Source of the DNA: an uncultured Bacteroidales bacterium
Lineage (GTDB): Bacteria; Bacteroidota; Bacteroidia; Bacteroidales; P3
Assembly (NCBI GenBank): GCA_900316055.1
Contig: ONBK01000009.1
Coordinates: forward strand, 63,540-87,539
DNA: 24,000 bases
Direction: 5' to 3'
Under the pieces are notes generated by a model. That model did no database searches, had not been told where the DNA came from, and saw nothing but the letters and a program-made list of their open reading frames with translations. This document shows, piece after piece, positions 2,504 to 24,000 of this stretch. How positions within the stretch are numbered: position 1 is the stretch's first letter; the number at the start of each line of letters is the position of its first letter. The position numbers were made by a program, and so were the translations under genes.

Positions 2504-2518
2504 GGTTTAAAAGGTTTA
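2504..2518. repeat. Inverted copy of the TAAACCTTTTAAACC arm
   Basis: GGTTTAAAAGGTTTA at 2504-2518 is the exact reverse complement of TAAACCTTTTAAACC at 2350-2364. It contains the stop codon (2516-2518) of the 356-aa minus-strand gene. Confidence 0.85.
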
Positions 2519-3586: not shown

Positions 3587-4062
3587 TATAGATGAGTTAT
3601 TGGATATCCGAATAATTTATGCAACTCATTTGCCACAATCGAGCGATGACAGGCATAGGGTGACTCCTCAACACAAAAAAAGACAACCCGTCTGGCGCCC
3701 ATTGCCTTGAGTTCCTCAACCAAAACCTGAAAATCGTAGCCCGCGATATGTTTCTTGTATCCGCTGACAAACACATCACCCAGCCGCGTGCGGTCTTTCT
3801 TTTGGATTCCGTTTAGTTTGTCGGCCTCTTTCTGTTTTTCACGAATTCCTTTGGTAGGCGATAAATCCTTGAGATAAGAATATCTGATATTCATTTCCGC
3901 GAGCCGCTGCAGCAGACGCTGAATGTTGACGAAGGCGTACTGGCTTCCCCGTACCCCACGCCGCTGCCGGATGTCGCAGAAGGTGTCGATATGGTTCTCA
4001 GCCAGTTTGCTGAAGAATCGCTGCTCGGTGGAGTTGTAGACCCCTAATGTGAAGACCTCCAT
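3586..4062 (-). CDS. DUF488 domain protein (paralog 2)
   Basis: VFTLGVYNSTEQRFFSKL..IDTFCDIRQRRG at the N terminus and VVFFCVEESPYACHRS near the C terminus match the two conserved DUF488 blocks. The listed start at 4065 is GTG. The ATG at 4060-4062 gives a TGATG junction with the upstream stop. Confidence 0.75.
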   Translation of the reverse strand: MEVFTLGVYNSTEQRFFSKLAENHIDTFCDIRQRRGVRGSQYAFVNIQRLLQRLAEMNIRYSYLKDLSPTKGIREKQKEADKLNGIQKKDRTRLGDVFVSGYKKHIAGYDFQVLVEELKAMGARRVVFFCVEESPYACHRSIVANELHKLFGYPITHL

Positions 4063-4604
4063 CACTCATACGTTTTTCGTGACATGAAACTTTCTTCGCC
4101 AAAGAGCGTCATGGTGCCCAGCCCTTTGGTCAGGATAGCCATCACGGTCTCCTGCGATTGGCTTTTGCCGATGCCGACGATGTGGTTCATAGAGATGTCA
4201 TGTTTTATCAGTTCCTGACCGATGAGTTTGCTACGGTGGCATTTTTCGGGTTCCGACTCACTGCACATCACAGCCACTTTCAGTCCCTTCTCGGCAGCTA
4301 CCAGCAATCGGGCAAGACCTTCTTGGAAGAACGCTTTTTCGCGCACTTTGGCGTAGTCGATATGTCCATCGGTATAGCAGGAGGTGTCGCTCGGCAGCCC
4401 ACCGATGCTGTCGCCCATATAGACGTAGACGAAGCCCCGCTTTTGCAGCAGCGCTCGCAGCGCCTCCTGGTTGAAAGAGGGGTTCCATTTTGAGTAGGGC
4501 TTGGTACGCACATCAATAAGGTACTGTATGCCAAACGACCGAAGTTCCTGTTCGAATTCCTCGAAGGTCTTGTTCCCGTGTCCTATGGAATAGATAGTCG
4601 ACAT
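4062..4604 (-). CDS. DUF488 domain protein (paralog 1)
   Basis: IYSIGHGNKTFEEFEQELRSFGIQYLIDVRTKPYSKWNP and VAVMCSESEPEKCHRS are the canonical DUF488 blocks. ATG start at 4604. Confidence 0.8.
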   Translation of the reverse strand: MSTIYSIGHGNKTFEEFEQELRSFGIQYLIDVRTKPYSKWNPSFNQEALRALLQKRGFVYVYMGDSIGGLPSDTSCYTDGHIDYAKVREKAFFQEGLARLLVAAEKGLKVAVMCSESEPEKCHRSKLIGQELIKHDISMNHIVGIGKSQSQETVMAILTKGLGTMTLFGEESFMSRKTYE

Positions 4605-7086: not shown

Positions 7087-7614
7087 TCATATCTTCGTAC
7101 AGACATACGTGTCGAAGTTTACCAGAGGCGGGAAACTGCCCATACTTCGAACCTCCGAAATGAAAGCATTGGCCTCAGCCTTGGTCATCTTACCACGACG
7201 GATAGCATAGTACAGGAAGTCACAGGTGGTCAGGTAGGTAATACCCTTTTCCTCGCAGTAGGCCGTCACGTCCTTCGTGTTGCTGCTGCCCACCACATCG
7301 TGATGATAGAGGCAATACACCATACAGGCACTCTCTCCCCGTCCCAGTGCCGGTCCGTCCTTGGATATCAACCGCGCATACTCCTTCACCTCACCGGCGG
7401 TCTTTCCGAAAGTCTCCTCAGCAATCGTCTTCTCCTGCGATATTTCCTTCTGTAGCATCGACAGCAAAAGGGCCGGTATCTCCCACTTCACCACGTCCAG
7501 AACCATAAACTGGAACTCAGGCAGTATCAACGGCAGCTCATGCAACCTCCCGGCCTTGGCAAAATGGATGATGACATCCGCATCCAACACTATCTTAGTC
7601 TTCTTCACTGCCAT
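7087..7614 (-). CDS. PIN-like nuclease domain protein (DUF3368/VapC-like pattern)
   Basis: IVLDADVIIHFAKAGRLHELPLILPEF..VLDVVKWEI resembles the N-terminal PIN/DUF3368 block. Further acidic positions sit in GRGESACMVY and SSNTKD. It overlaps the ImmA gene by 20 nt. Confidence 0.5.
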   Translation of the reverse strand: MAVKKTKIVLDADVIIHFAKAGRLHELPLILPEFQFMVLDVVKWEIPALLLSMLQKEISQEKTIAEETFGKTAGEVKEYARLISKDGPALGRGESACMVYCLYHHDVVGSSNTKDVTAYCEEKGITYLTTCDFLYYAIRRGKMTKAEANAFISEVRSMGSFPPLVNFDTYVCTKI

Positions 7615-8299
7615 ACAGCATATTCATCAACTCGTTATAATGCCCCTCTGAAATCTTGCCTGTCTCAAACAGCGCACGCGCTTTTTCGCCAAAGTCACCT
7701 ATCACCAGCCCCTCGTTGCCAGGCTCATAGAGCGACATGTCGTAGCCGTATTCCCGTGCCGACTCTTTCACGCCAACTGCCTTCAAAGCCTCAAGCTGCT
7801 GCTGCGAAATCAGTCCGATGTCCTTCAACCGTATCAATAGCGTTATCCTCGACACCCCGAAATACTGCTCCAGCTTGAGCACCGTGGCCAGCGAAAGCTT
7901 GTGACCCATAATTTCCTCCTTGCTCACCATCGTCAGCACCCCCTCGCGAGGCATCAGCAGCGACGAGGCAAAACGGTTGGCGTTCTTTTCCTCGCCATCA
8001 ACACCGTCACCGCACATGTGAGGCATGGGCTTCTCGTCGAAATAAAGATGATACAGCTCGTGTGCAATGGTGAAATGCTGGCGGCCACGGGTAGAGTTGC
8101 TGTTGACCAGCATGAAACGCTTCTGGCCCGACATACAGCTGATACCGAACGAGTTTTCCGACAGCGGACGGTAAACCAGGGTCACGCCCAGCTTGCGGAT
8201 CAGCGTCTTGGCGTTGATGGGCTCAGCCAGGCCCAATCCCAAATCCGACCTGAACTTGGCGGCCAGTGAATCAGCTTCGATAATGGTTAGTGTCTTCAT
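7595..8299 (-). CDS. ImmA/IrrE family metallo-endopeptidase (COG2856)
   Basis: HExxH motif in FTIAHELYHLYFD, preceded by the typical RQHFTIAHE context. ATGA overlap with the upstream XRE gene at 8296-8299. Confidence 0.8.
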   Translation of the reverse strand: MKTLTIIEADSLAAKFRSDLGLGLAEPINAKTLIRKLGVTLVYRPLSENSFGISCMSGQKRFMLVNSNSTRGRQHFTIAHELYHLYFDEKPMPHMCGDGVDGEEKNANRFASSLLMPREGVLTMVSKEEIMGHKLSLATVLKLEQYFGVSRITLLIRLKDIGLISQQQLEALKAVGVKESAREYGYDMSLYEPGNEGLVIGDFGEKARALFETGKISEGHYNELMNMLYGSEED

Positions 8300-12337: not shown

Positions 12338-15300
12338 TCACGCATCAAGCCACTCCTCCTGAAGTGCATTCAAGTTCACTTCAAAAGGAAGGTGATGTCT
12401 GATAACAAACAATGTGTGGTTAGCTTGATTATCCTTCCCTTCATATTCGTCAATTATCTTCATGCCCTTACTCGCAAGGAACGAATAATTCACAAATTCT
12501 TCAGGTTTAGTAAGAATACGAGACCTCCAGAATGATGCTATAAACTCATTAATTACAGTTTTCACCTCACTGCCTATCACCTTAACCAAATCGCTTTCAA
12601 GTCTTACAATAACAGCCATGATATACTTGAATGCCTGATAAGAATCCACATTGATTGTTGTAATAAGGTAAGCGAATATGTATACTGGATAGTATCTATT
12701 CATATCCAGTTTATTTACCTCGTCAATATAAGTCTTATTATACTCTTTTCTTTCCAAAACGGCAATCACCTCTTTAACAACTTCGTCGTGTATGACAGGC
12801 TGATAACTGCGCAGAATGTCACGTATCTTTTCCAGCCCGCTTCTATCGCCTGTGATAGCCATCTTCAGAGCCAGGAAAAGCACCGGTGTCATCACATACT
12901 CAATAAATTCAGAGTCCGCACTCTCCCGTTTCATCTCTGGATGCGTCTCAAATGTCTTTGTCTGAGACAAAGTGGAAATGTCTGCTATCTGCGCCACCGC
13001 ATCAAAGTCCTGTTCTTTCAGGAACACAGGCACCAAAAGAGTCACAATAAAATGGATCTCCATTGTTTCACCCCGTCTTTTGATGGCTTCCAGCACTCTA
13101 TATGCCCAATCTGTTTTCATCTTTTCCATCTTTAATGCATCACATATCTGGTACATCAGGTAGCTAGATGTAAAGATTCTATCCTCTGAATAAAGATTAT
13201 CCAAGGCCTGCGCATCCTGTTCCGTAAACATGCCACGGTACGACTTCGCCTGCCCATCTGGAACCTCTCTCACACCTAATTCACCAAGATAGTTTACCAT
13301 CAACCAATCGCAAAGGCAAAGATATGTCTTGGCAAAGGGCGATTTCAATCCTTCTTCACTTGTCACATACTTGACACACTCAGAGATCACGTCAACTGAC
13401 CTAACTCTATCGCCAGCATCCCAATACATTAGTGATAATTCGCCCAAACATTGGTAATACTCATATATTGTACTTGAATGCCCGGGCTTTTGGACATAGT
13501 CAATAACCTTCTTCAACTGAGCGATACCTTCATTCATATCCGTCTCGCTCATCACATACGCCTTTATCTGGCCCAAATGAAGATGAATATTGGGTATCAC
13601 CTCACCATACTCTGCCGTCTGCAAGGCTTCGATATATGGCAATGTTTCTTTATTCTCTACTTCATTATTCGAATAGATTGAGTATGCCATCGAGCCATTT
13701 AACAGCACTTTCGCCAAAGGATATTTTTCAAACTGAATATAATAGTTGCCATAAACTCTTCTAGTATCCTCGTACCGTCCTGCTTTATTGAATGTCTCCA
13801 TCATCTCAAACAGGGCAGAGATCGCCATTTCCGGACATCTATACTCAATTGATTTATCCAATATATGCTGTAAACCCGCTATGATATCCCCCTGTTCCCA
13901 ACTTTTCCACTCTCTATTCACTAACTGGTATCCTGCCAAGTAGCAATGCTCACATATATCACTGTCCGAGTGGTTATACTCAAAAGGTTTAGCTGCAAAA
14001 TCTTTCAGCCAGGTCTCAAACTCTTCTATCTTTGTGAAGCGGAGTGGCAAAAACCAGATGCTCTTTTTGTACAGTTCATCCATCTCGTCCAGTTCATCCA
14101 CGCCCTTGCTATTCTTATTACGTTTTTCGATAGACAGGTTGTGATATTTCAAGCCAGCTTGAATTCTGTCCTCCGACCAACACAAAACGCTCAGCACACT
14201 ATAATAGGCAGCAGTCAGTTCACTTTCCGCCGCGCCCTCAATTATCCTGCAAAGATCATTCAGTATGTAATTTCTCTTGCTAGAAGACAGATTCTTCAGT
14301 ATCGTTAGTTGCTGAACTCTGACAGCAATCCGCAAATTCTCGGTCATCAGAATTGGCAGTTGGACATCCACCCACATAGAAGGAAGAATAGTCAGTTTGG
14401 GCAAATCTTCTTTCCTGATTTTCTCCAAAGCCCGCATATACATCAGTCCTGCTTCATCATACCGTTCTGCATTCTGCGCATAGAGTATGTAGTGAAGCAC
14501 ATCCAATTCATTAAGGGGCCCAGTCTTAATCATTATTCTGGATGCCAATAGCCAGTTACAACTCCTATAGCATTCATTATCCATATCAGGAGTCCATGCC
14601 TTATCATAAAGAGGTGTCACTTTATAGAGTCCGCTTTCTTCCGTCACCCACCCTGGTGTCAGAGACAGCAGCTTACTCCTTGGTTCCGCAATCTGCGGAC
14701 TGACCGAAGCCAAAGCCTTCACATCATCCTCTGAAAAGACTGTTTTCACCAGCATCAGACGGTTCAGCAGACTTCTGGTATCAGAATCAGGAATCATCCT
14801 TTGCATCAACTCTGCCAACGAGCGAGAGAGTTTATGATCAAAAGAATAGTTCAGCATCTGTCCAAACACCTTCTCATCCATCACCCAGTTACAGGAAGAA
14901 AGATATGTACATAGTGCTCTTGCCAATACTGGATGTCCGTAACTGTGTGCCCAAATAAACTTGCTGAAGTCTTGTCTTGGCGAATAGGTCTCTATCAGTT
15001 CCTTGGTTTCTACTTCTGTCAACAACGGGACTTCCACCTGTGCCACACGGCTCATATCCACCAAAGTCATATTCTCATCTATAGGAGCGTCTGTAGTGAC
15101 GACGGGCTTTTTTCCTTCTTGTAATTCTTGATAACAGAGCCGTATTACTTCATTGAGATGACCTGATGGCACATCCGTACAAACAAAACCATCTTTGACA
15201 TTGCTGAGCACCAGCTCTGACAAAGTTCGTTTCCCTGTTTTCACACTCCCGAACAACACAAGCACCTTTCCTTCGTTACAATGCTGAACACATTGCTGCA

Positions 15301-15898
15301 CCAGTGCTTCGCGTTTCACAATATGCAGATTATTCCTATCAGCATTCCGCAATACTGATAGCGAGGATGGAATGACCGACACCTGTTTCAATTCAGGTGA
15401 AGCCTGCACATTCTTGACAATTATGTCAAGTTTATCATTGATAGCGGTCAGGCTTTGTTTTGTTTCTTTTCTTGCACCTGACAGTTGTTCTAATATAGTT
15501 TTCTGGTCGTTCTCTATTTGCTTCAGACTGGCAGCTGACATTCTTAGCAGCTTGAATTGCGTCCAAACCTTCAGTCGAGTATCCTTGCAAACTTCTTCTT
15601 CAAACAGTTCTAGTAATTTCTTGTATTGTCCTTTCTGCGGGTCAAAATCCGGGGCCGCCTTAATTTCTTCTTTAAGTGCCTCCAGATAATGATCGTATTC
15701 CCTCCTTGCTTCGTTCCCTGCATATTCGGGGTCTGCATAAAACCTGCTGATAGCCCTCTCAAAAGCATTCCTATACCTTTTCTCCATCGACTTCTTGTCT
15801 GCAAGAAAAGACACGCTTTCCTTCCCCGACTCAAAAATTGCCGTGGCAATCAGGCTCTGAAGGACAGGTGCTAAAAACAATGAAATAGAGGCTATCAT
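12338..15898 (-). CDS. Large STAND-like NTPase, 1186 aa: N-terminal hydrophobic helix and coiled coil, degenerate P-loop, long helical-repeat C-terminus
   Basis: P-loop-like GSVKTGKRT (nt 15224-15250), hhhhD stretch PVVTTD, VEVPLLTEVETKELIETY, and a SYGHPVLARAL block resembling the GxP/GLPLA motif of STAND NTPases. About 800 aa of helical-repeat-like sequence follow. ATGA overlap with the upstream gene. Confidence 0.55.
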   Translation of the reverse strand: MIASISLFLAPVLQSLIATAIFESGKESVSFLADKKSMEKRYRNAFERAISRFYADPEYAGNEARREYDHYLEALKEEIKAAPDFDPQKGQYKKLLELFEEEVCKDTRLKVWTQFKLLRMSAASLKQIENDQKTILEQLSGARKETKQSLTAINDKLDIIVKNVQASPELKQVSVIPSSLSVLRNADRNNLHIVKREALVQQCVQHCNEGKVLVLFGSVKTGKRTLSELVLSNVKDGFVCTDVPSGHLNEVIRLCYQELQEGKKPVVTTDAPIDENMTLVDMSRVAQVEVPLLTEVETKELIETYSPRQDFSKFIWAHSYGHPVLARALCTYLSSCNWVMDEKVFGQMLNYSFDHKLSRSLAELMQRMIPDSDTRSLLNRLMLVKTVFSEDDVKALASVSPQIAEPRSKLLSLTPGWVTEESGLYKVTPLYDKAWTPDMDNECYRSCNWLLASRIMIKTGPLNELDVLHYILYAQNAERYDEAGLMYMRALEKIRKEDLPKLTILPSMWVDVQLPILMTENLRIAVRVQQLTILKNLSSSKRNYILNDLCRIIEGAAESELTAAYYSVLSVLCWSEDRIQAGLKYHNLSIEKRNKNSKGVDELDEMDELYKKSIWFLPLRFTKIEEFETWLKDFAAKPFEYNHSDSDICEHCYLAGYQLVNREWKSWEQGDIIAGLQHILDKSIEYRCPEMAISALFEMMETFNKAGRYEDTRRVYGNYYIQFEKYPLAKVLLNGSMAYSIYSNNEVENKETLPYIEALQTAEYGEVIPNIHLHLGQIKAYVMSETDMNEGIAQLKKVIDYVQKPGHSSTIYEYYQCLGELSLMYWDAGDRVRSVDVISECVKYVTSEEGLKSPFAKTYLCLCDWLMVNYLGELGVREVPDGQAKSYRGMFTEQDAQALDNLYSEDRIFTSSYLMYQICDALKMEKMKTDWAYRVLEAIKRRGETMEIHFIVTLLVPVFLKEQDFDAVAQIADISTLSQTKTFETHPEMKRESADSEFIEYVMTPVLFLALKMAITGDRSGLEKIRDILRSYQPVIHDEVVKEVIAVLERKEYNKTYIDEVNKLDMNRYYPVYIFAYLITTINVDSYQAFKYIMAVIVRLESDLVKVIGSEVKTVINEFIASFWRSRILTKPEEFVNYSFLASKGMKIIDEYEGKDNQANHTLFVIRHHLPFEVNLNALQEEWLDA

Positions 15899-17001
15899 GC
15901 GTATTTCTCCATCAACTGGTTTATATTGTACTGTGTCTCAACACTAGCTATATAATGAAAAAACAAAGGATTATTGTCAAGTGACCTTTTCAGCACTTTG
16001 TTCAGAAGTCTATAACGTTGCATTTGCTGTTTATCGAATTTTTCTATGTCAGCAACAATCTCATTTAATGTCCTGTCTACAAAGATGAAATATTTTCTCA
16101 ATATTGAGACCACATAATCACATACTTGAATCATTGGGTTGGTTGCAGAATCAGAAAAACTATAGTTATTAAGCTTCGTACCATTTACTTCAATTGTGTC
16201 TTCCGTCAACAGTTTTTCGACCTGTTTCTCAGTATCAAAAACCAAAGTCCTATTTGGATAAGAATATATTTCAGCAGAGTAGAATTGTACAAACATTTTC
16301 ACCCATTCATCTGGGGTCTCATCCTGTATGAATGTGAGTTCATCTTTCTTCTTTGCTTCATTAATCTTCTTCACCAGAATACTCGCCATCATTTTATCGG
16401 GTGGATTTGGCACTGTTCCAATGAACTTTAAAACCTTTGCTTCCAAACCGTCTAAAAACACTATTTTATCTTTGTCTTTAATATCAGGATAGTGATACTT
16501 CCCAAACAGTTTAACGGTTTCCTCTGGTGATGACTTCAATATTCTGTAAAGAATCGCTTTTAGATTATGCGCCAACATAACATCATCACAGATGGAATCT
16601 ATCACATCCACGAAGGCATAATACCACACCTGAACCATGATGAAATGCACATTCCACCTCTTGCTTTCAACCAAGTCAAACGTCCTCTGAAAGGCATCCT
16701 TACGCAGAATTTCTACAAAAGAGCCTCTCAAATCTTTCGTTGATTTCAGTTCTCGTCCCGGCTCTTTACCTAATGCAGCATGAAGTTCATCATCCGAAAT
16801 AATATCCTCTGTCTGTACACCACCCAAAACAAAACAGGCATTTTCTGAGGCATTTACACGCTTTTCTGGCAATAGCACTAAATGCTTCACGTTGTCCGTC
16901 TCATCGTAATACCAAGTTTCCCTTTTATCGTATTGTTCTTCTGATACTCCCTGAGCCAAGGCCATCAGCCTGTTCAATTGATATACTCTGCTGTAATCCA
17001 T
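15895..17001 (-). CDS. DUF3800-like protein, 368 aa
   Basis: N-terminal WYYDETDN and C-terminal FSDSATNPMIQVCDYVVSIL correspond to the two conserved DUF3800 blocks (DE.. near the N terminus, DS....iQ.aD near the C terminus). Confidence 0.45.
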   Translation of the reverse strand: MDYSRVYQLNRLMALAQGVSEEQYDKRETWYYDETDNVKHLVLLPEKRVNASENACFVLGGVQTEDIISDDELHAALGKEPGRELKSTKDLRGSFVEILRKDAFQRTFDLVESKRWNVHFIMVQVWYYAFVDVIDSICDDVMLAHNLKAILYRILKSSPEETVKLFGKYHYPDIKDKDKIVFLDGLEAKVLKFIGTVPNPPDKMMASILVKKINEAKKKDELTFIQDETPDEWVKMFVQFYSAEIYSYPNRTLVFDTEKQVEKLLTEDTIEVNGTKLNNYSFSDSATNPMIQVCDYVVSILRKYFIFVDRTLNEIVADIEKFDKQQMQRYRLLNKVLKRSLDNNPLFFHYIASVETQYNINQLMEKYA

Positions 17002-17016: not shown

Positions 17017-18048
17017 TTATTCCACATACCAATCCGGCTTCACCCATTCAGGGAACAATCTCTGCCTCGTTTCCCTTAGTTTTGCCAAATAAAAATCATA
17101 GAAATCCCTATAGAAATTGAAGGGTTTTAGAGCCATGTCTTCTGCGATAGAATAACCTCCATACACCATGAGCCATAATCTCAGTGCGCTACCAACATAA
17201 CCCCACAACACATCTATCTCCGGGACGTCCATTCGCTTCATCAGCAAATCAATTCTGATATCCATATGTGGATGACTACCTCCACCACTAACACTGTCTG
17301 GCCCCATGAAAAGCAAGGCACACAACAGGTTGGCAATGCCAACTTTGTTTGTATAGCCATCATCTGCGCCAAACGTCTCAGCCAACCAATCAAAAGCCAA
17401 CTCATCAGCAGCTATTTCATCCTTTACCATTTGATTTGCGTTGCTAACAGTTTGTGTATGTCCTAAATAACTATGAGCCAGTTCGTGTGCAAAAATGAAA
17501 CCCACCCCACTTATCATCAATGCATTTGCCTTTCCAATTTCATCTCTAAAAGCCTGCGGGTCACATATATTGGGTATTTCAAAGAATATTTCCTTTCTCC
17601 ATTGTGTTTCCAGAAGTCTTCTCGCCCTGAAAAAAGAATCGCCTGCAAATTCTACTGCAGCCATGTTTGCTTTATAGCCATGAATATTACACCCCATTGC
17701 ATTCATCATCGGTATTTGAACCACATTGTCGAATACCGTACTGATGTAAAGACCGACGGCCCATAGAAACTGACAGAAAGTCAACGAAATGTTGATTTCA
17801 TACTTCCCATTTTTCTCTATGATTTCTCCAGGTGTCAGACAACCGTTATTCTCTTCCAAAAACAGGATATTCTTTGAAAGGTCATTTGTGTTTACCTCTG
17901 TATTTGCAGCCTCCCAAACGCCTTCAATATTTAGGACATGTTGAATACTCAAATCACGCAAAGCCTGTACTGGCAAATACAAACCAGAGTAGTCAAACAA
18001 TGATTGTTCTATAGGATACGCCATACCATCATCGCTTAATAAGGACAT
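17017..18048 (-). CDS. HExxH zinc-metallopeptidase-like protein, 343 aa
   Basis: A single FIFAHELAHSYLGH motif (nt 17458-17487). The rest is unrecognised and the family is not assignable by eye. Confidence 0.5.
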   Translation of the reverse strand: MSLLSDDGMAYPIEQSLFDYSGLYLPVQALRDLSIQHVLNIEGVWEAANTEVNTNDLSKNILFLEENNGCLTPGEIIEKNGKYEINISLTFCQFLWAVGLYISTVFDNVVQIPMMNAMGCNIHGYKANMAAVEFAGDSFFRARRLLETQWRKEIFFEIPNICDPQAFRDEIGKANALMISGVGFIFAHELAHSYLGHTQTVSNANQMVKDEIAADELAFDWLAETFGADDGYTNKVGIANLLCALLFMGPDSVSGGGSHPHMDIRIDLLMKRMDVPEIDVLWGYVGSALRLWLMVYGGYSIAEDMALKPFNFYRDFYDFYLAKLRETRQRLFPEWVKPDWYVE

Positions 18049-18164
18049 TCCATTCTGCCTGTACGACTTATACTAAAACTAGCATCAAGGTTGAAACAAC
18101 CATTCACCATGAACCCTGAACCAAAAGTGTTCTGTGCTATCTGTGTGACCTTGAGCCATGCCAT
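18036..18164 (-). CDS. Unlisted 42-aa micro-ORF (MAWLKVTQIAQNTFGSGFMVNGCFNLDASFSISRTGRMECPY)
   Basis: Hand-translated. Its ATG overlaps the upstream TAA as TAATG at 18164. Its TAA (18036-18038) lies 13 nt inside the peptidase-like gene. It fills the only apparent gap in the gene chain exactly. Confidence 0.3.
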   Translation of the reverse strand: MAWLKVTQIAQNTFGSGFMVNGCFNLDASFSISRTGRMECPY

Positions 18165-18661
18165 TACTTCAACTTCGTATTAACCCTTATACCCTTTTTG
18201 GTCTCTGAATATGACGATATATAATCTCGTGCCTTTAACACCCTCGCCAATCTCCAGGACTCTTCATTATTTGGGATTTCCGGTTTCTTTCCCTTCTCTG
18301 CAATATACTTGTAGGGGAAAGGCAACGTCTCTATGAAAGCGGAAATGACGTCTTCATCAAACACATTCTTCTCCAATGTATAATTCAGCACCCTCATCCT
18401 TTCGCCTGACATTTTTGTTAGTTTCATCACTTTCAGCAGGAAGTCCTTGTTAAGAATTACCTCTTGCCTATCGAGAAGATGAATAATCTCGTCAGACAAC
18501 TCTTCATTCAAAATAGCCACATCAAAATATGGGATAAGATTTGTCTTCTCAACAATCGTAAGGTTTGATCTCATAAGACCCACAGCAGTTTCAGTACTAT
18601 ACGCTACATCCTCTGGGGTTTTCAGCCATTCCCGTTTATGTTTAAGCAGGTACGCTATCAA
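18164..18661 (-). CDS. Hypothetical protein, up to 165 aa (TTG start; first in-frame ATG gives 136 aa)
   Basis: The ORF is open only from a TTG at 18661, with an in-frame TGA 14 codons upstream. The first ATG is at codon 30 (nt 18574). No motif recognised. Confidence 0.45.
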   Translation of the reverse strand: MIAYLLKHKREWLKTPEDVAYSTETAVGLMRSNLTIVEKTNLIPYFDVAILNEELSDEIIHLLDRQEVILNKDFLLKVMKLTKMSGERMRVLNYTLEKNVFDEDVISAFIETLPFPYKYIAEKGKKPEIPNNEESWRLARVLKARDYISSYSETKKGIRVNTKLK

Positions 18662-18721
18662 TGCAGACGAAGAATAACGGCTTAATATTCCACTGATTGA
18701 TCAATTCCATTCTTCTTCAAT

Positions 18722-18748
18722 AAAAAATAGAGAGTCCAACAGACCTCT
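18722..18748 (-). terminator. Intrinsic terminator closing the drt3 transcript / candidate ncRNA
   Basis: The minus RNA reads AGAGGUC-UGUUG-GACUCUCU: 7 bp with one bulged U, followed by AUUUUUUA. Confidence 0.5.
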
Positions 18749-18938
18749 GGGGGTCATTAGTGTGTGGAGCGAACTCCTCGGATTGGTTTTGCAACTGCCG
18801 TAGCATGGAAGGCTTTCTTGCGCCTCAACGCAATAGGCCTCCGGTGCAGCCCCAGCCCGTATATTCCTCTGCCTCTTCCGTCATGAGTGGAATTGACTTC
18901 GGACTGTCTCTTCGGGTCTGCCGGGCTCTCTAAGGGTC
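18749..18938 (-). ncRNA. Candidate DRT3-associated structured ncRNA
   Basis: A ~190-nt ORF-free stretch, GC-richer than its surroundings, between the drt3b stop and a terminator. It contains AGGC-CUA-UUGCG-UUGAGG-CGCAA-GAAA-GCCU (18810-18840) and GGAG-UUCG-CUCC (18766-18777), directly followed by CACACAC (18766-18760). Confidence 0.45.
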
Positions 18939-20876
18939 TTATTCGTAAGGTGAATGATATTCTTTCTTTTCCAAATACTCTGTCAAGTCGTGGTTCTTGT
19001 CCCAGTCAAAGAACCATCGTTTAGGCTTGGACAATTCTGCACGCTTAGCCCCGGACTTATCCCGTTTAACGTCCAAGCAGTTCGCTATAATTGTCAAACA
19101 GGTATTCTTTGTCACGTATGGACATGTCATCACATCAAAGAACAAGCAGGCATTGTCTGCTTTGCGAAGACGCTTGGGTTCCGACAAGCGCGACATCAGC
19201 TCCGTTTCTACACCACTAAGTACAGCAGAATACTCCGCATCATTCTCAATGAGATATAGTAGCGTACATAACTGGAAATAGTTCAATCGCTCGTATCCCG
19301 TGCCGTCCGCTATCTTCAGTCCAAACAACGAGTCAATTTGTCTGACTGGTATATTGAATCCAATAAGCCTGTGCAAAGTGATGAGCAGGTTGAGCACTTC
19401 CAAATTAGTATTCTCAACTGCAAGGTCTGCCTGATAAATGTCTATCACGCGCTTTGCCTCACGACGTATTCTTGCCGTAAGTTCTATCTTGGTTTCTGGT
19501 TCAACTGCCATGTCCGACCAACGTACAAGACAATCCAGAATAGAGCACAAACGGTATGAAGCCGTGGTGTGCATATCCAGAGAGAAAAGGAAGAACGCAA
19601 TGTCTGCATAACCTGTCAGCAGGTTCTGACTGGGTATCATCTCCTTCTTCATTTCCCGTCTTATCTGGTTCAGCAAGAGTGTAAGCGTATATTTGTTCAA
19701 GTCGCCATAATGTTGCTGGAACTGATGGGTAATAGAGCGGAAATGCTTCACAAAAGAGGTAAAGAGGCTATAATCGCTCCGTATGGCTGTGGCATAGTGT
19801 TTTTTCTCTCCTTCGCCCTCTTTTCTCTTCAGGTGCTTCTCCTTAAACTCCGCCACCATCTTGTTCACCTGCCGCTTGGCATCGCTCACACCAGAAGTAA
19901 ATGGACGGTCAAAATATTCGCGCTTTTTCTCATTGATATCCAGCTTATAGAAAGCAAGCTGTTCTTTGTAGGCAGCACAAATGTCATCCAATACTTTGCG
20001 AGAGTTGGCATAGATGTATGAATCGTCCACATAGCGACGTATCTCATAGTCACGACCAAGGGAGTAACCCATCTCTTTCAATTGACGCAGAATGGCTAGG
20101 TCAACGGCTTGAAGGATAATCTCTGCAAAGATACGTGAGATTTCCGGTCCTACAACAATGCCATTTGTCTCGTTGTAGTTGGCGTGCTGCATTAACTGGT
20201 CAAAATTCTTTTCGAAGGTGTCTGCATTGATATTATCCTTAGCGATTTCTTTTCCTTTCACTGCCCAAGCAACTGTATGGGTATAAATGTGATAGAAACA
20301 GCCTGTGATGTCAAGAGTCATCATATGACTGAACTTTTGCTCCAATCGCAGGTTATCGCCGCTTTCGAAGAACTTATACGCCAAGTCATATTTCTTATAA
20401 CTGAAATAGGAACGGTAGCGTTTCTCTATCGCGTTATTATCCAATTCTATCACCTGACCTGCTGCTTCTTCAGGTAACGCTTCGTTATCATCTTCAGCAT
20501 CTTCCTCTGGTGGAAATACACACTTTGCCTTCTTGCTGATATAGCGTATAGAGAATGGGCTGTGCGAACAGAGGTTGAGCATATACTCATCGTATTTCTC
20601 ATAGTGGTCTACACAGTCCAACTGGGTAAGTGGATGTACTAAACTAAGTTTACGGCTCTTCTCACCACCAACCCTACGGACATTATAGTCAAAAGGAATT
20701 GTCCAATCTCTTCTATTCACGCATTTACCGAAAACACTGACAAACAGATTTCTAATGATATCATCCTGCATATTCTCATAGAATGCCTCGTTGTTGAGTA
20801 TAAGAGGCAATTCATATGGGAGTACTTCTGTCAGCAGCACCCGGTATTTATTATTCAAATCGTTCGCCTGTTTCAT
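18939..20876 (-). CDS. drt3b: Antiviral reverse transcriptase Drt3b (UG8-type)
   Basis: RT motifs LDITGCFYHI, NGIVVGPEISRIFAEIIL, RRYVDDSYIYA (YVDD at nt 20022-20033) and LDINEKK, plus a long C-terminal helical extension. The listed start at 20885 is TTG. The ATG at 20876 forms an ATGA overlap with the drt3a stop. Confidence 0.75.
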   Translation of the reverse strand: MKQANDLNNKYRVLLTEVLPYELPLILNNEAFYENMQDDIIRNLFVSVFGKCVNRRDWTIPFDYNVRRVGGEKSRKLSLVHPLTQLDCVDHYEKYDEYMLNLCSHSPFSIRYISKKAKCVFPPEEDAEDDNEALPEEAAGQVIELDNNAIEKRYRSYFSYKKYDLAYKFFESGDNLRLEQKFSHMMTLDITGCFYHIYTHTVAWAVKGKEIAKDNINADTFEKNFDQLMQHANYNETNGIVVGPEISRIFAEIILQAVDLAILRQLKEMGYSLGRDYEIRRYVDDSYIYANSRKVLDDICAAYKEQLAFYKLDINEKKREYFDRPFTSGVSDAKRQVNKMVAEFKEKHLKRKEGEGEKKHYATAIRSDYSLFTSFVKHFRSITHQFQQHYGDLNKYTLTLLLNQIRREMKKEMIPSQNLLTGYADIAFFLFSLDMHTTASYRLCSILDCLVRWSDMAVEPETKIELTARIRREAKRVIDIYQADLAVENTNLEVLNLLITLHRLIGFNIPVRQIDSLFGLKIADGTGYERLNYFQLCTLLYLIENDAEYSAVLSGVETELMSRLSEPKRLRKADNACLFFDVMTCPYVTKNTCLTIIANCLDVKRDKSGAKRAELSKPKRWFFDWDKNHDLTEYLEKKEYHSPYE

Positions 20877-22054
20877 CTCCAGCAATTTGCAATCTTCGCC
20901 ATTTGGTCGGTGGTGAAGTGATGATTTACATGATGGTAATAGCCAAAGTCGAAAGAGTATTTCTCCAAATCCTTCACTTGTGGCTTTGTAAGTGCGATTG
21001 CCCCGCCCAATCTACCTGTACGGCAATGCAGCAAACGTTGATAGTAAGCATCAATATCTTTCAATGCTCTGACATCATTGGCCATCTTATAGTTGAAGTA
21101 GATACCCACTTTAATAGGCAGGAGTGTATGCGGGTTATAAAGTGTGAAATTACCCGTCAGGAATTTGATACGCAGTTTCAGAAGGTCAAAGTTGTGATCT
21201 TTGGAGTAGCGTACAAATGTCCTTGTCAGACGGGTCTTGATAACTTTCAGTTTATTTTGAGCTATGGTCACGCTTAAGCGGTTCCCAATCTTCTTGAAGG
21301 TATAACCTAGGTATGTGAACTCTGCACCTGGCAGGCTTGGGTCAAGGCTGTATGACTTTTCTTTATTCAACTGCAAACCTATCTTATTCAGTTCCTCGCC
21401 AGCATATTTCCACGCAAGTACCTTGCTTGCCTCACTGCTACAAAAGACAATAATATCATCCACAAATCGGGCATAGTAATAAACACCCTCAATCTTCTTG
21501 AAGTCCAGGTCAAAATACTTCATATATAGCTCTGACAGCACAGCACTGATGCCTAGGCCACGGGGAAGACCTGTTCCTGCAACAATAGCGGGGTCATTGA
21601 AAAGGGACTGCAAAAGCATTAGTGAGTGGTAGCTCAGTCGGGTATCGTCTACCAACTTCGTCAGAATACGCTGACGGTCTATGGACTCATAGAAGTGACG
21701 TACATCTAAGCGTACTATCCGCATCTCTACATTTTCCGCAAGCAGCAGTTTCATCTGCTTTACAATGGTATTGCGGTCTGCCTGTTGCACTGCATATATG
21801 CGCTTGATGTTCTTGTGCAGTTTGCGAAGAACAAGGTTTTGGCAGAGATATGCCATGGTTCTTTTGCCTTGACCGTTAAGATACAAATCCCAGTATTGCT
21901 TAATCTGGAAACGATATGTACCAGCAACTATGGTATTCCCCAATTCTGCCCCAATAGCTTCAATTAGCTCCTCTTTCTGCAAGCCAGAGTTGCGCCGTTC
22001 TGCCTGAGTGGTACAACGGTACAGTTCTGTTGGAGTAAATGATTGGGTATACAT
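20873..22054 (-). CDS. drt3a: Antiviral reverse transcriptase Drt3a (UG3-type)
   Basis: RT motifs RLDVRHFYESID, GLPRGLGISAVLSELYM, YARFVDDIIVF (FVDD at nt 21455-21466), GLQLNKEKS and FTYLGYTF. A ~390-aa RT directly followed by a ~645-aa second RT is the DRT type 3 architecture. Confidence 0.75.
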   Translation of the reverse strand: MYTQSFTPTELYRCTTQAERRNSGLQKEELIEAIGAELGNTIVAGTYRFQIKQYWDLYLNGQGKRTMAYLCQNLVLRKLHKNIKRIYAVQQADRNTIVKQMKLLLAENVEMRIVRLDVRHFYESIDRQRILTKLVDDTRLSYHSLMLLQSLFNDPAIVAGTGLPRGLGISAVLSELYMKYFDLDFKKIEGVYYYARFVDDIIVFCSSEASKVLAWKYAGEELNKIGLQLNKEKSYSLDPSLPGAEFTYLGYTFKKIGNRLSVTIAQNKLKVIKTRLTRTFVRYSKDHNFDLLKLRIKFLTGNFTLYNPHTLLPIKVGIYFNYKMANDVRALKDIDAYYQRLLHCRTGRLGGAIALTKPQVKDLEKYSFDFGYYHHVNHHFTTDQMAKIANCWR

Positions 22055-22082
22055 ATTCTTTATTATTAAAATACTTTCAATT

Positions 22083-22316
22083 CTACTTGTATTGGTTTTT
22101 ATGCTTGTACTGTTCGATTTGTTCTATTAATCTCTTAAACGATTCTATACGCTCAGACTTCAATCGCCCGGCAGTATACAACTTTCTATTATGCTTAAGC
22201 CAGTTGAAGAAACGGCCCCTTTCTTCATCATTATGTTTAGACGGATTCCGCTTGTTAGTCTCTATGAAGTTCTTCACCTCATTATATTTCTCTAGCCACC
22301 GCTCTTCTTGCGTCAT
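22083..22316 (-). CDS. Helicase-associated (HA) domain mini-protein, 77 aa (copy 2)
   Basis: ERWLEKYNEVKNFIETNKRNPSKHNDEERGRFFNWLKHNRKLYTAGRLKSERIESFKRLIE. Both intact copies end in KNQYK. It lies 28 nt upstream of drt3a. Confidence 0.6.
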   Translation of the reverse strand: MTQEERWLEKYNEVKNFIETNKRNPSKHNDEERGRFFNWLKHNRKLYTAGRLKSERIESFKRLIEQIEQYKHKNQYK

Positions 22317-22341
22317 ACCCGAAACTCTTAACTCTGAACTA
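22317..22341. repeat. Short word array (CTCTTAAC TCTGAAC TATCAAC TCTTA) filling the RAYT / HA spacer
   Basis: Read directly. It uses the same word family as 9393-9421. Confidence 0.6.
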
Positions 22342-23154
22342 TCAACTCTTATTTACGGTATTGTCGCCAGCCTCCCTCACCCGCCTATACGACCATCCTG
22401 TGTGGCTCATCACCTGACGGATAGAGGCGCCTTCCGCTTTCGTGTCCAGTACGATTCGCGTCTGTTCCTCCATTGTCAGCCGCTGGAACTCAGCCACGCT
22501 CTTCGCACCACACTGCTCAATGATGAAGTCCCGCACTTCCGAGTCCTGCAGGCGCCTCGTATTGTCCACGTCCACACAATTCGCATCGCACGGCTCGTTC
22601 ACCAGTGCCCTCAAGTCCTCCAGCGAAATGCGCTTCAGCACCGCCCGAACATGGCTAATGGGCCAGCCCAACTCATCCGGTTCACGCAGGTAATCCTGAT
22701 TCCAACTGCTCCACTCGTAGTCAGCCGCATCCTCCACGATTCCTGCCTTCACAGGATTCTGGTGGATATAGCGTAGCAGCGTCGTGAAGTAATCCATATC
22801 GTTACACGGCTCGCTCTTAAAACGCTCCTGAAACAGATGCCCGATGCGCTCGTTCTTCTTGTTGTAGTAGTACACATAGCTGCTCGCCAGACTCTTGATT
22901 ACCTCCGCAATCTTCCAGTCCTTCTCCATCACCAGCAGGTGGAAGTGGTTCATCATAAGACACCATGCGTAAATCACACAAGTACGTATGGGCAGCAGCC
23001 TCCCGTCATCATCATGCTGGAACGGCAAGTCCGCAAGAATATCCATAAACCGCCGGCAATCCTCATCATCGTCGAAGATAGCCTGACGATTTATCCCTCG
23101 CATCATCACATGATAGATGCCACAGCCGCTTTCCTTTCTGGCACTCCGAGGCAT
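22342..23154 (-). CDS. REP-associated tyrosine transposase-like (IS200/Y1 HUH family) protein with a C-terminal HTH-like extension
   Basis: HUH motif in MMNHFHLLV (nt 22939-22947) and a catalytic-Tyr context in LLRYIHQNPVKAG. The N-terminal GIYHVMMRGINRQAIF is typical of this family. Confidence 0.7.
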   Translation of the reverse strand: MPRSARKESGCGIYHVMMRGINRQAIFDDDEDCRRFMDILADLPFQHDDDGRLLPIRTCVIYAWCLMMNHFHLLVMEKDWKIAEVIKSLASSYVYYYNKKNERIGHLFQERFKSEPCNDMDYFTTLLRYIHQNPVKAGIVEDAADYEWSSWNQDYLREPDELGWPISHVRAVLKRISLEDLRALVNEPCDANCVDVDNTRRLQDSEVRDFIIEQCGAKSVAEFQRLTMEEQTRIVLDTKAEGASIRQVMSHTGWSYRRVREAGDNTVNKS

Positions 23155-23166
23155 GATATGACAATC

Positions 23167-24000
23167 TCAATCTTCGTTATTCTCCTCTTCCGGCAGCGCC
23201 TGTACATCCCCTGCTGGTGGCAAGTAGTCCGCCGCCTTGGCAGGAGAAATCACCGAGTGACCAAGTTGCGATTCCAATTTGTCACGAGCGGCCTTAGCCA
23301 CACTGCCACCTTTCTTGGCCACTTTCACACTCTGTTTATAACCCTGAGGGTTCTGCTCTTTTGACAAGTCAGTAGCGGCACTCTCTGCCAACATGTTGAG
23401 GATAAGCTCCGTATTGGTCATATTGTCGCGCAGGCTCTCTTTCTTCAGTCCCTTGAACTGTTTGTATTGCCTAGTCGTTTTACCACTCCACTCGCGTGTA
23501 ATAATATCGGTAAGTGACGCATATTGCTGTCCCTGTTGCACGCCAGCGCGGTCCCACTCGTCGGTGAGGGCCTTGCGCACCTCGATGCTCTTCACCCGAT
23601 TGTTGATCCAACTTTCAGAATACCCCTTGCGGCGCCAGTCTTGTATGGCCTGATCAACCGCCAGCTCCGGGTCGGCCAACTGGTCCAGCCGTTCCTTGGC
23701 CACTTGCGCCATCCACTGCTTGAAGGGCTCTGCCTTCTTTGAAGGAATGCTCTGAATGAGGCGGAAGAGTTGCTCGGTGCTGGCCACATCGGTGAGGCGC
23801 ATCTTGCCGTCGGGAGCAAGCATCTTCAAAGCGTTACAATTTGTAACGGTTTCGTTCCCCTCTTTCTTTAAACGGTTCTTAAGGACACGCCAATAGGTCT
23901 GAGGGTTCTCACTCTCAGAGAGCACCGCACACACGTCCACGATGGAGAAGTACCACTCCTCCCGTTCGTCGTCCCATGCAGTCCGCACCTTCTTGTCCTC
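23167..24000 (-). CDS. Bro-N domain / DinD-like protein (5' end outside the window)
   Basis: VRTAWDDEREEWYFSIVDVCAVLSE...YWRVLKNRLKKEG fits the Bro-N pattern, and the remainder resembles DNA-damage-inducible DinD-type proteins. The listed start is GTG, and the frame stays open to nt 24000. Confidence 0.6.
   Translation of the reverse strand, partial: EDKKVRTAWDDEREEWYFSIVDVCAVLSESENPQTYWRVLKNRLKKEGNETVTNCNALKMLAPDGKMRLTDVASTEQLFRLIQSIPSKKAEPFKQWMAQVAKERLDQLADPELAVDQAIQDWRRKGYSESWINNRVKSIEVRKALTDEWDRAGVQQGQQYASLTDIITREWSGKTTRQYKQFKGLKKESLRDNMTNTELILNMLAESAATDLSKEQNPQGYKQSVKVAKKGGSVAKAARDKLESQLGHSVISPAKAADYLPPAGDVQALPEEENNED

What the first reader, a model, noticed from the sequence alone, without database searches (positions are those of the whole stretch)
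18749..18938. Candidate DRT3 ncRNA with a UUCG-capped hairpin abutting a CACACAC tract
Seen: 190 nt between the drt3b stop and an intrinsic terminator (18722-18748) carry no ORF and are visibly GC-richer than the flanking AT-rich genes. Hand folding of the minus-strand RNA gives a two-tier hairpin, AGGC/GCCU plus UUGCG/CGCAA (18810-18840). It also gives GGAG-UUCG-CUCC (18766-18777) immediately 5' of CACACAC (18766-18760). Inference: this is where the DRT3 ncRNA is expected. If the RNA supplies a short reiterated template, as in other RT defence systems, the CA-repeat next to a stable tetraloop hairpin is the obvious candidate. I am not certain of the published template details for DRT3.
Basis: partly seen in the sequence, partly recalled or inferred. 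Interest (0 to 1): 0.7.

Follow-up and report, generated by a model that had tools for sequence, protein, structure and literature searches.

The report
DRT3 template RNA downstream of drt3b
This roughly 205-base stretch is the non-coding RNA partner of a phage-defence system with two reverse transcriptases (DRT3), and its invariant ACACAC loop is very probably the template for poly(GT) DNA; the RNA type was described in E. coli in 2026, and this is a divergent Bacteroidales version of it.

Summary
On the minus strand, drt3a (20873-22054) and drt3b (18939-20885) are followed by a GC-richer, non-coding stretch. It contains GGAG-UUCG-CUCC (18777-18766) directly abutting ACACAC (18765-18760).

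Wang et al. 2026 (PMC13174585) and Deng et al. 2026 (Science) showed that the E. coli DRT3 ncRNA lies downstream of drt3b. Its conserved 5'-ACACAC-3' loop templates poly(dTdG) synthesis by Drt3a, and Drt3b makes the complementary poly(dCdA).

New points from this work:
- ACACAC lies 62-240 nt after the drt3b stop in the window and in all 66 loci examined, across several phyla.
- A covariance model places one hit in the window, at 18726-18932(-), with 177.8 bits.
- Across 47 distinct homologues, 83.7% of pair cells are paired (35-44% in slid controls), and 61 of 63 pairs show compensatory changes.
- The UUCG loop itself is not conserved; only its stem is.
- The model does not detect the E. coli ncRNA. 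This is therefore a divergent, larger member (about 205 nt against about 135 nt) with the same architecture.

Verdict: new member of a known kind, low to moderate interest.

The parts
20873..22054 (-). drt3a, a 393-aa Class 2 (UG3) reverse transcriptase and the predicted RNA-templated enzyme
   Evidence: PADLOC Drt3a E 2.4e-112. NCBIfam NF041747 scores 363.5 bits against a cut-off of 200. PDB 9z6y_A Drt3a E 2.6e-37. The catalytic motif is FVDD at residues 197-200, where E. coli has YVDD.
18939..20885 (-). drt3b, a Class 1 (UG8) reverse transcriptase. The ORF is called from TTG at 20885, but the likely start is ATG at 20876, which overlaps the drt3a stop as ATGA.
   Evidence: PADLOC Drt3b E 1.2e-176. 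NCBIfam NF041748 scores 598.2 bits against a cut-off of 350. PDB 26cz and 9z6y. The E. coli functional residues map to E25, R78, D192, F197, R251, YVDD 285-288 and Y647.
18722..18932 (-). Predicted DRT3 ncRNA of about 205-211 nt. The covariance-model hit is 18726-18932, and the U-run extends to 18722.
   Evidence: R1 gives a single hit in the 24-kb window, 177.8 bits, E 4e-57, covering model positions 1-212. Rfam has no match.
18915..18932 (-). P1 5' strand, UAGAGAG-C-CCGGCAGACC
   Evidence: It pairs with 18728-18745 in the MFE fold. Helix 1 is 85.9% paired, and all 17 pairs show changes on both sides.
18903..18916 (-). Conserved 5' motif CCCGAAGAGACAGU, drawn as single-stranded
   Evidence: It is at least 90% conserved across 47 distinct sequences.
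18865..18903 (-). P2, a three-tier stem-loop: UCC/GGA, GUC/GGC and UUCC/GGAA
   Evidence: Present in the MFE fold. Helices 2 and 3 are 66% and 84.5% paired, and all 13 pairs show compensatory changes.
18857..18866 (-). Conserved GAAUAUACGG junction motif leading into P3
   Evidence: AUAUACG is at least 90% conserved.
18852..18859 (-). P3 5' strand, CGGGCUGG
   Evidence: It pairs with 18779-18786. Helix 4 is 84.9% paired, and 6 of 7 pairs are compensatory. The window has one C.A mismatch (18855/18783) where its nearest relatives have U:A.
18808..18842 (-).
   Evidence: Present in the MFE fold. Helices 7-9 are 71-81% paired, and all pairs are compensatory even though the sequence is not conserved.
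18796..18805 (-). P3b, a small hairpin UGC-UACG-GCA inside the P3 domain
   Evidence: Helix 10 is 92% paired, with GC to AU changes in 12 sequences.
18779..18786 (-). P3 3' strand, CCAAUCCG
   Evidence: helix 4.
18766..18777 (-). SL4-like hairpin GGAG-UUCG-CUCC. Its 3' strand abuts the template with no linker, and it is the predicted 5' template-boundary anchor.
   Evidence: Helix 11 is 99.5% paired, with A-U to G-C changes in 14 of 47 sequences. There are 19 loop types, and UUCG occurs in 10 of 47. A hairpin 0-4 nt 5' of ACACAC is found in 22 of 25 diverse DRT3 loci.
18760..18765 (-). ACACAC, the predicted template for poly(dTdG) synthesis by Drt3a
   Evidence: Invariant in alignment A2 and present in the window and all 66 loci. 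It is unpaired in the MFE fold. The function was shown only for the E. coli homologue.
18746..18759 (-). Conserved 3' linker UAAUGACCCCCAGA between the template and P1
   Evidence: CUAAUGA..C.CA.AGG is at least 90% conserved. The E. coli RNA has only UAUUG here.
18728..18745 (-).
18722..18727 (-). U-run directly after P1, the probable transcript 3' end
   Evidence: In 46 of 46 homologues, at least 5 of the 8 bases that begin at the first TTT after P1 are T. Identity to the closest relatives falls from 86-94% to about 50% beyond it.

Best explanation
The region encodes the non-coding RNA subunit of a DRT3 anti-phage system.

The RNA is about 205 nt and is transcribed on the minus strand just after drt3b. 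It folds into a scaffold closed by a 17-bp stem (P1) between its two ends. Inside are a three-tier stem-loop (P2), a multi-branched domain (P3, P3a, P3b) and a short hairpin (GGAG-UUCG-CUCC). The hairpin is followed directly by a single-stranded ACACAC.

Inferred mechanism, by homology with E. coli DRT3:
1. Drt3a binds the RNA and is anchored at the base of the hairpin, which sets the 5' limit of the template.
2. Drt3a copies ACACAC into d(GTGTGT).
3. The product slips back by one or two AC units and is extended again, in a telomerase-like cycle that gives poly(dTdG).
4. Drt3b primes from its penultimate tyrosine (Y647 here). It uses a Glu and an Arg gate (E25, R251) and makes poly(dCdA) without any nucleic-acid template.
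5. The two strands anneal into poly(GT/AC) duplex DNA, whose accumulation causes abortive infection.

Shown here: gene identities, conservation of the functional residues, the position, conservation and covariation-supported structure of the RNA, and invariance of ACACAC. Inferred only: transcription, the RNA ends, binding, templating, the product and the trigger.
For: The genes are Drt3a and Drt3b by PADLOC and by NCBIfam equivalogs above their cut-offs. They match the solved DRT3 structures 9z6y and 26cz. All residues shown to matter in E. coli Drt3b are conserved: E22, R71, R241, YVDD and Y666.

Published experiments place the E. coli ncRNA downstream of drt3b and show that its ACACAC loop templates poly(dTdG). 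ACACAC is found 62-240 nt after the drt3b stop in the window and all 66 loci, from Bacteroidota and from Alpha-, Beta- and Gammaproteobacteria.

On the plain MAFFT alignment, 81.4% of pair cells are paired against 33-48% when the partners are slid. On the model-fitted alignment of 47 distinct sequences the figure is 83.7% against 35-44%. There, 61 of 63 pairs have compensatory changes, and the covariation score is 0.508 against at most 0.10. The model finds exactly one hit per locus. Sixteen of those hits are sequences not used to build it.

The same architecture is seen in 14 of 25 diverse DRT3 loci, including E. coli, against 2.8% of shuffles. It consists of a closing stem, a hairpin just 5' of the template, and an unpaired template.

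A study of DRT10 states that in the DRT2, DRT3, DRT9 and DRT10 structures two stem-loops frame the template. The RT contacts the base of the 5' one to set the boundary.

Conservation ends at the U-run, and the downstream ORF is not shared with any other locus.
Against: There are no expression, end-mapping or product data for this locus or for any Bacteroidales DRT3.

The models built from this clade do not detect the experimentally characterised E. coli ncRNA, even with filters off. The link to it therefore rests on genomic position, the ACACAC motif and shared topology, not on alignable sequence.

The single-sequence fold is only modestly better than shuffles, with z = -2.2. The window's MFE pairs part of the 3' linker (GGCUGG/CCCCCA) instead of forming P3. 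The comparative model is 2 kcal/mol less stable than the MFE.

Drt3a has FVDD rather than YVDD. In E. coli the stem next to the template is a larger stem-loop with a 3-8 nt linker, not a 4-bp hairpin with no linker. The boundary role of this hairpin is therefore an inference.
Confidence: 0.9

Rival explanations
1. The RNA is a real DRT3 scaffold, but templating differs from E. coli. The template window might be another length or register, for example CACACAC or ACACACU. Alternatively the hairpin might not act as the boundary, so that the product or its processivity differs.
For: The hairpin abuts the template with no linker. In E. coli the adjacent stem is separated from the template by 3-8 nt. 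In most loci the base 5' of ACACAC is C, which extends the CA repeat into the stem. A 14-nt conserved 3' linker is present here but absent in E. coli.
Against: The six bases ACACAC are the only part that is invariant across all phyla. Drt3b keeps the dA and dC gate residues, so a (GT)n partner strand is still what is needed.
Confidence: 0.06
2. The region is only a structured 3' UTR and terminator of the drt3ab operon, and the CA tract is incidental.
For: A U-run follows the structure. A local hairpin of -7.2 kcal/mol can form just before it. CACACAC alone is not rarer than chance in the window.
Against: A terminator does not need 200 nt of conserved, covarying multi-helix structure. It also does not need an invariant ACACAC across phyla. 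The local hairpin is weak in most homologues, with a median of -2.7 kcal/mol. The terminator scan does not call the site.
Confidence: 0.02
3. The region is a cis-regulatory leader or a small gene serving the downstream 165-aa ORF (18164-18661). Alternatively it encodes a small protein on either strand.
For: The ORF starts 60 nt after the U-run on the same strand. Mechanical ORFs of 57, 29 and 23 aa overlap the region.
Against: The 165-aa ORF has no homologue in any of the 70 loci then held, yet the RNA element is present in all that include the region. Indels that are not multiples of three separate close relatives. Substitutions are compensatory for base pairs.
Confidence: 0.01
4. The RNA is a retron-like msr/msd. 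The end-to-end stem would play the role of the a1/a2 repeats, and a branched msDNA would be made.
For: A long stem joins the two ends of the RNA, as in retron ncRNAs.
Against: The RTs score as Drt3a and Drt3b. The retron RT models score far lower: RT_Ec107-like has E 1.4e-12 against 2.4e-112 for Drt3a. The published DRT3 product is a tandem repeat, not msDNA.
Confidence: 0.01

Closest known systems
E. coli (ECOR12) DRT3 ncRNA, 161 nt (Wang, Yoneyama et al. 2026, bioRxiv, PMC13174585; Deng et al. 2026, Science, PDB 9z6y/9z6z)
   Same: It is encoded in cis just after drt3b on the same strand. It has an invariant 5'-ACACAC-3' in a single-stranded stretch, followed by UAUUG (UAAUG here). A stem sits on the 5' side of the template. 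A closing stem joins the 5' end to the segment 3' of the template. It is partnered with Drt3a and Drt3b proteins that carry the same functional residues.
   Different: Protein identity is about 34%. The RNA here spans about 205 nt, against about 135 nt from P1 to P1. It has a three-tier P2, a branched P3 domain, an extra 4-bp hairpin touching the template, and a conserved 14-nt 3' linker. It has no separate terminator hairpin, because the U-run follows P1 directly. Models built from this clade do not detect the E. coli RNA.
DRT10 (UG17) ncRNA, with telomerase-like tandem-repeat synthesis (PMC12632851; bioRxiv 10.64898/2026.06.29.735271)
   Same: A short single-stranded template is framed by stem-loops. 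The 5' stem-loop, anchored by the RT, sets the template boundary, and microhomology resets the product. Drt3a is the closest relative of the UG17 RTs: RT_UG17 is its second-best PADLOC family, with E 5e-37.
   Different: DRT10 has one RT plus a SLATT effector and uses a longer repeat unit. Here the system has two RTs and a 2-nt repeat, and the second strand is made by Drt3b.
DRT9 and DRT2 ncRNAs
   Same: Both are Class 2 UG RTs that use a dedicated ncRNA as template.
   Different: DRT9 makes poly-dA. DRT2 makes concatenated gene-encoding cDNA by rolling-circle copying. Neither has a second RT.
Telomerase RNA template plus template-boundary element
   Same: A short reiterated template lies next to a helix that stops the RT.
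   Different: The telomerase system is eukaryotic and extends a chromosome end. Any relationship is only through the proposed Class 2 RT lineage (PMC12632851, title and abstract).

Membership tests
DRT3 defence system | A Drt3a (UG3, Class 2) reverse transcriptase gene | tested here: met
   NCBIfam NF041747 equivalog scores 363.5 bits against a cut-off of 200. PADLOC E 2.4e-112.
DRT3 defence system | An adjacent Drt3b (UG8, Class 1) reverse transcriptase gene on the same strand | tested here: met
   NCBIfam NF041748 scores 598.2 bits against a cut-off of 350. The gene overlaps the drt3a stop.
DRT3 defence system | Intact catalytic motifs in both RTs, plus the Drt3b priming Tyr and the dA/dC gate residues (E22, R71, R241, Y666 in E. 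coli) | tested here: met
   The residues map to E25, R78, R251, YVDD 285-288 and Y647. Drt3a has FVDD 197-200. The residue roles are from PMC13174585 section 7.
DRT3 ncRNA | Encoded in cis directly downstream of drt3b on the same strand | tested here: met
   The model hit at 18726-18932(-) starts 7 nt after the stop codon.
DRT3 ncRNA | A conserved 5'-ACACAC-3' in a single-stranded loop | tested here: met
   It lies at 18765-18760. It is invariant in alignment A2, present in the window and all 66 loci, and unpaired in the folds.
DRT3 ncRNA | A stem-loop next to the 5' side of the template (SL4 in the E. coli RNA) | tested here: met
   The hairpin at 18766-18777 is 99.5% paired with compensatory changes. 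Its geometry differs from E. coli, with no linker and a 4-bp stem.
DRT3 ncRNA | A match to the published DRT3 ncRNA covariance model (32-41 E. coli-like systems) | not testable with these tools
   The model is not available here, and Rfam 15 has no such family (no hit). The reverse test failed: models R1 and R2, built from this clade, do not find the E. coli ncRNA.
DRT3 ncRNA | The RNA is expressed, co-purifies with the RTs and templates poly(dTdG) | not testable with these tools
   This needs RIP-seq and cDIP-seq or a biochemical assay. It has been shown only for E. coli.
Retron msr/msd | A retron-type RT, and an ncRNA whose msd is copied into a discrete msDNA | tested here: not met
   The retron RT models score far below Drt3a: E 1.4e-12 against 2.4e-112. 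NCBIfam retron_St85_RT scores 31.8 bits against a cut-off of 235.

The most novel reading that the evidence does not exclude
The Bacteroidales-type DRT3 ncRNA may be a structurally distinct subclass that the published E. coli-based covariance model does not capture. It has an extra hairpin fused directly to the template, a conserved 14-nt 3' linker, a branched P3 domain, and a closing stem that doubles as the terminator stem. If so, template-boundary geometry in DRT3 is not fixed. The family would range from minimal RNAs of about 85-115 nt (Gilliamella L011, L062) to RNAs with ACACAC 240 nt from the stop (L017, L064), all around the same six-base template.
Probability: 0.45. Interest if true: 0.35.

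Novelty: new member of a known kind. Interest (0 to 1): 0.25.

Why it matters
The finding does not change what is known about DRT3. It does show that the RNA-templated half of the mechanism holds well beyond E. coli. The same six-base template is found in the window and all 66 loci examined, including abundant gut and rumen Bacteroidales, while the surrounding RNA scaffold has diverged past recognition by a covariance model.

It also provides a covariation-supported structure and a working model for annotating these RNAs in Bacteroidales. Neither Rfam nor RefSeq annotation currently marks them. Finally, it offers natural variants of the template-boundary geometry that could be used to test the 'anchored stem-loop' model of repeat synthesis.

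Tried and rejected
- Rfam scan of 18000-22600 at E up to 1 gave nothing.
- blastn of the region against 5,426 E. coli genomes gave no match. The only plasmid match was a 175-nt stretch of drt3b in Phaeobacter.
- Deng et al. (PMC13533446) is not held in the library, so the cryo-EM RNA model could not be consulted.
- tblastn with an E. coli Drt3b fragment found nothing above 44% identity in plasmids or phages. The protein search returned only a copy truncated by IS1. I then used its DNA to reach an intact E. coli locus.
- RNAalifold on a broad MAFFT alignment recovered only 12 pairs, because sub-clades were out of register. I replaced it with a sub-clade alignment and a covariance model.
- Searching E. 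coli and other distant loci with R1 (filters off) and with the broadened R2 found no E. coli hit. It recovered only L066 and L062.
- A viral-contig scan with E. coli Drt3b gave too few distinct sequences to build an E. coli-type model.
- Longest stop-free stretches in the region were uninformative as a coding test, because the region is short and GC-rich.
- The sigma-70 promoter-like site inside the drt3b 3' end (18986-18959) is not beyond chance, with 11 sites found against 9.1 expected. The scan's own documentation warns that it does not cover organisms with other promoter types.
- Hard-constraint folding did not take effect. I used energy evaluation of an explicit structure instead.
- I tried to map Drt3a Y419, the residue said to contact the 5' stem-loop. 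The numbering of the deposited chain did not let me identify the residue.

Full report
**What is in the sequence**

Read on the minus strand, the window carries two overlapping reverse-transcriptase genes: 20873-22054 (393 aa) and 18939-20885 (648 aa from a TTG). An ATG at 20876 overlaps the upstream stop as ATGA, and it fits the 645-646 aa of the homologues. They are Drt3a and Drt3b. PADLOC gives E 2.4e-112 and 1.2e-176. The NCBIfam equivalogs score 363.5 and 598.2 bits against cut-offs of 200 and 350. Both match the solved DRT3 structures 9z6y/9z6z and 26cz.

- GGAG-UUCG-CUCC at 18777-18766
- CACACAC at 18766-18760
- the two-tier hairpin at 18810-18840

The element has GC 0.55, against 0.37-0.48 in the flanks. 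Only mechanical ORFs overlap it: 57 aa on the + strand, and 29 and 23 aa on the - strand. Close relatives differ there by indels of 1, 2, 4 and 10 nt.

**What is already known**

Two 2026 studies describe this kind of RNA in E. coli. Wang, Yoneyama et al. [quoted passage not shown] It has a highly conserved 5'-ACACAC-3' loop next to a stem-loop. Mutating the loop abolished both defence and the poly(dTdG) product. Purified Drt3a needed the RNA to make poly(dTdG). Drt3b made poly(dCdA) with no nucleic-acid template, priming on Y666 and using E22 and R241 as gates. Deng et al. (Science 2026) solved a 6:6:6 Drt3a:Drt3b:ncRNA complex. I know that paper only through a review, because it is not in the library.

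A later DRT10 study states that in the DRT2, DRT3, DRT9 and DRT10 structures two stem-loops frame the template. The RT contacts the base of the 5' one to fix the template boundary.

**Comparative evidence**

Using an alignment of Drt3b homologues, I fetched 17 genomic, 51 metagenomic and 1 viral locus. I also reached the E. coli reference locus L019 by an indirect route. The published 161-nt ncRNA is L019:5721-5881.

The window and all 66 loci that include the region downstream of drt3b (63 distinct sequences) have ACACAC on the coding strand, 62-240 nt after the stop. About 0.08 occurrences per locus would be expected by chance. Elsewhere in the loci the hexamer occurs at background frequency. 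In the window itself CACACAC is not over-represented, with 4 found against 2.6 expected. The hosts span Bacteroidales, Cytophagia, Flavobacteriia, and Alpha-, Beta- and Gammaproteobacteria. The window's closest relatives are rumen and gut Bacteroidales, at up to 92% protein identity in metagenomes.

**Structure**

Single-sequence folds of about 25 Bacteroidales-type RNAs give the same plan. In 5'-to-3' order it is:
1. a long closing stem, P1
2. the conserved motif CCCGAAGAGACAGU
3. a three-tier stem-loop, P2
4. the motif GAAUAUACGG
6. a 4-bp hairpin
7. ACACAC
8. the conserved linker UAAUGACCCYCAGAGG
9. the P1 3' strand
10. a U-run

On a plain MAFFT alignment of 22 sequences this structure gives 81.4% paired cells, against 33-48% when the partners are slid. 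Compensatory changes occur in 34 pairs, against 12-17 in the slid controls.

A covariance model built from that alignment (R1: 212 positions, 63 pairs) finds exactly one hit in each of 50 sources (the window and 49 loci). Sixteen of these were not used to build it. In the window the hit is at 18726-18932(-), with 177.8 bits. On the resulting alignment of 47 distinct sequences:
- 83.7% of cells are paired, against 35-44% slid
- 61 of 63 pairs show compensatory changes
- the covariation score is 0.508, against at most 0.10
- no shuffle out of 500 reaches any measure

That alignment is fitted to the structure and so leans towards it. The unfitted result points the same way. The comparative structure costs the window RNA only 2 kcal/mol relative to its MFE, -72.6 against -74.6. 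The window has a single C.A mismatch in P3 where its nearest relatives have U:A.

- The 'intrinsic terminator' at 18722-18748 is mostly the 3' strand of P1. The local hairpin is -7.2 kcal/mol in the window, but its median is -2.7 across 46 homologues, and only 8 reach -5. The P1 duplex is -28.3 in the window, with a median of -24.0. All 17 P1 pairs covary. The terminator scan does not call the site.
- A U-run follows P1 in 46 of 46 homologues, and conservation decays beyond it. The RNA probably ends there, with P1 serving as the terminator stem. This last point is an inference. E. coli instead has a separate GC-rich terminator hairpin after P1.
- The UUCG loop is not special. There are 19 loop types among 47 sequences; UUCG occurs in 10 and CUUG in 13. 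The closing pair is G-C. What is conserved is a stem whose last base pair touches the template (99.5% paired, with A-U to G-C changes in 14 sequences).

**Relation to the E. coli RNA**

R1 with filters off does not detect the E. coli ncRNA. R2, rebuilt from all 50 hits, also misses it and its relatives L074 and L076. R2 does reach L066 (56.8 bits) and a 114-nt minimal form in L062 (22.1 bits).

The topology is nevertheless shared. In 25 representatives from all clades, including E. coli:
- the template is fully unpaired in 18
- a hairpin ends 0-4 nt 5' of the template in 22
- a stem of at least 6 bp joins the 5' end to the segment 3' of the template in 24
- all three features occur together in 14 of 25, against 2.8% of shuffled controls

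Possible motif correspondences are CCUGAAGCAGAUACC in E. coli against CCCGAAGAGACAGUCC here, and GAAUGUUC against GAAUAUAC. These are visible by eye but remain unresolved. I therefore file this as a member of the DRT3 ncRNA kind, on position, template and architecture. It is a divergent and larger structural form.

**Mechanism**

The Drt3b of the window keeps every residue shown to matter in E. coli: E25, R78, D192, F197, R251, YVDD 285-288 and the penultimate Y647. Drt3a has FVDD. The most likely mechanism is therefore the published one:
1. Drt3a, anchored at the hairpin base, copies ACACAC (18765-18760) into GTGTGT.
2. It resets by AC microhomology and repeats, giving poly(dTdG).
3. Drt3b makes protein-primed poly(dCdA).
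4. The strands anneal to form duplex DNA.

The gene and RNA identities are shown here. Expression, ends, binding, product and trigger are inferred.

**Rivals**

- A mere UTR or terminator is excluded by 200 nt of covarying structure and by a phylum-spanning invariant hexamer.
- A leader for the downstream 165-aa ORF is excluded, because that ORF has no homologue in any other locus.
- A small protein is excluded by frame-breaking indels and by pair-compensating substitutions.
- A retron-like RNA is excluded by the RT family assignments.
- The only live alternative is a difference in template register or boundary behaviour relative to E. coli.

**Verdict**

The finding is a new, divergent member of a kind of RNA that was published in 2026. 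It is useful for annotation, because Rfam 15 has no family and RefSeq leaves even the E. coli ncRNA unannotated. It also offers natural variation in template-boundary geometry. It would not surprise a specialist.

Noticed in passing
window 18164-18661 (-): A 165-aa ORF starts 60 nt after the ncRNA U-run. It has no PADLOC, Pfam or NCBIfam hit and no homologue in any of the 70 DRT3 loci then held, so it is not part of the conserved system.
   Followed up: partly
window 17017-18048 (-): A 343-aa protein resembles the Lit phage-exclusion peptidase (PADLOC Lit E 3.5e-14). NCBIfam scores 54.9 bits, far below the cut-off of 274.
   Followed up: no
window 12338-17001 (-): A 368-aa PDC-S51/DUF3800 protein (E 5e-91) overlaps by 4 nt a 1186-aa protein that has no family hit. 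This looks like a candidate two-gene defence module next to DRT3.
   Followed up: no
window 22342-23988 (-): Upstream of drt3a lie two genes. One is a Y1/IS200-like protein that resembles REP-associated tyrosine transposases (62.5 bits against a cut-off of 80). The other is a Bro-N / PDC-S13 protein (E 4e-126).
   Followed up: no
window 2516-4604 (-) and 7595-8299 (-): A DuOB-domain protein is followed by two DUF488 proteins, and there is a separate M78/IrrE-like peptidase. These are more defence-island-like content. Housekeeping genes (an ABC-2 permease and adenylate kinase) lie at 400-2323.
   Followed up: no
window 20873-20885: The drt3b ORF is called from TTG at 20885. An ATG at 20876 overlaps the drt3a stop as ATGA and fits the 645-646 aa of the homologues, which suggests translational coupling.
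   Followed up: partly
window 18855 / 18783: P3 of the window RNA has a C.A mismatch where the nearest relatives (L021, L063) have U:A. This lets the MFE fold pair GGCUGG with the conserved CCCCCA linker instead.
   Followed up: partly
window 18728-18749: The conserved CAGAGG just before the P1 3' strand mimics the P1 5' strand (UAGAGAG). CUCUCU can therefore pair locally (-7.2 kcal/mol) or at long range (-28.3). It could be an alternative fold during transcription. The local version is weak in most homologues.
   Followed up: partly
L011:4882-4970, L062:3342-3455, L017 and L064: The size of the DRT3 ncRNA varies widely around the same template. In Gilliamella the P1-to-P1 element is about 85 nt. 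L062 has a 114-nt form that model R2 recognises. In L017 and L064 ACACAC lies 240 nt after the stop.
   Followed up: partly
L019:5705-6152 (E. coli NZ_AP027487): RefSeq annotation has no feature for the published ncRNA between drt3b and the next gene. The E. coli system sits in a P4-like satellite, flanked by an integrase and by ogr/Delta and psu genes. In Klebsiella locus L018 the same drt3b is cut by IS1.
   Followed up: partly
window 18959-18986 (-): A sigma-70-like TTGACA-16-AAGAAT site lies inside the 3' end of drt3b, about 27 nt upstream of the P1 5' end (18932). It is not more than chance in this scan, and the scan's documentation warns that it does not cover organisms with other promoter types.
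   Followed up: no
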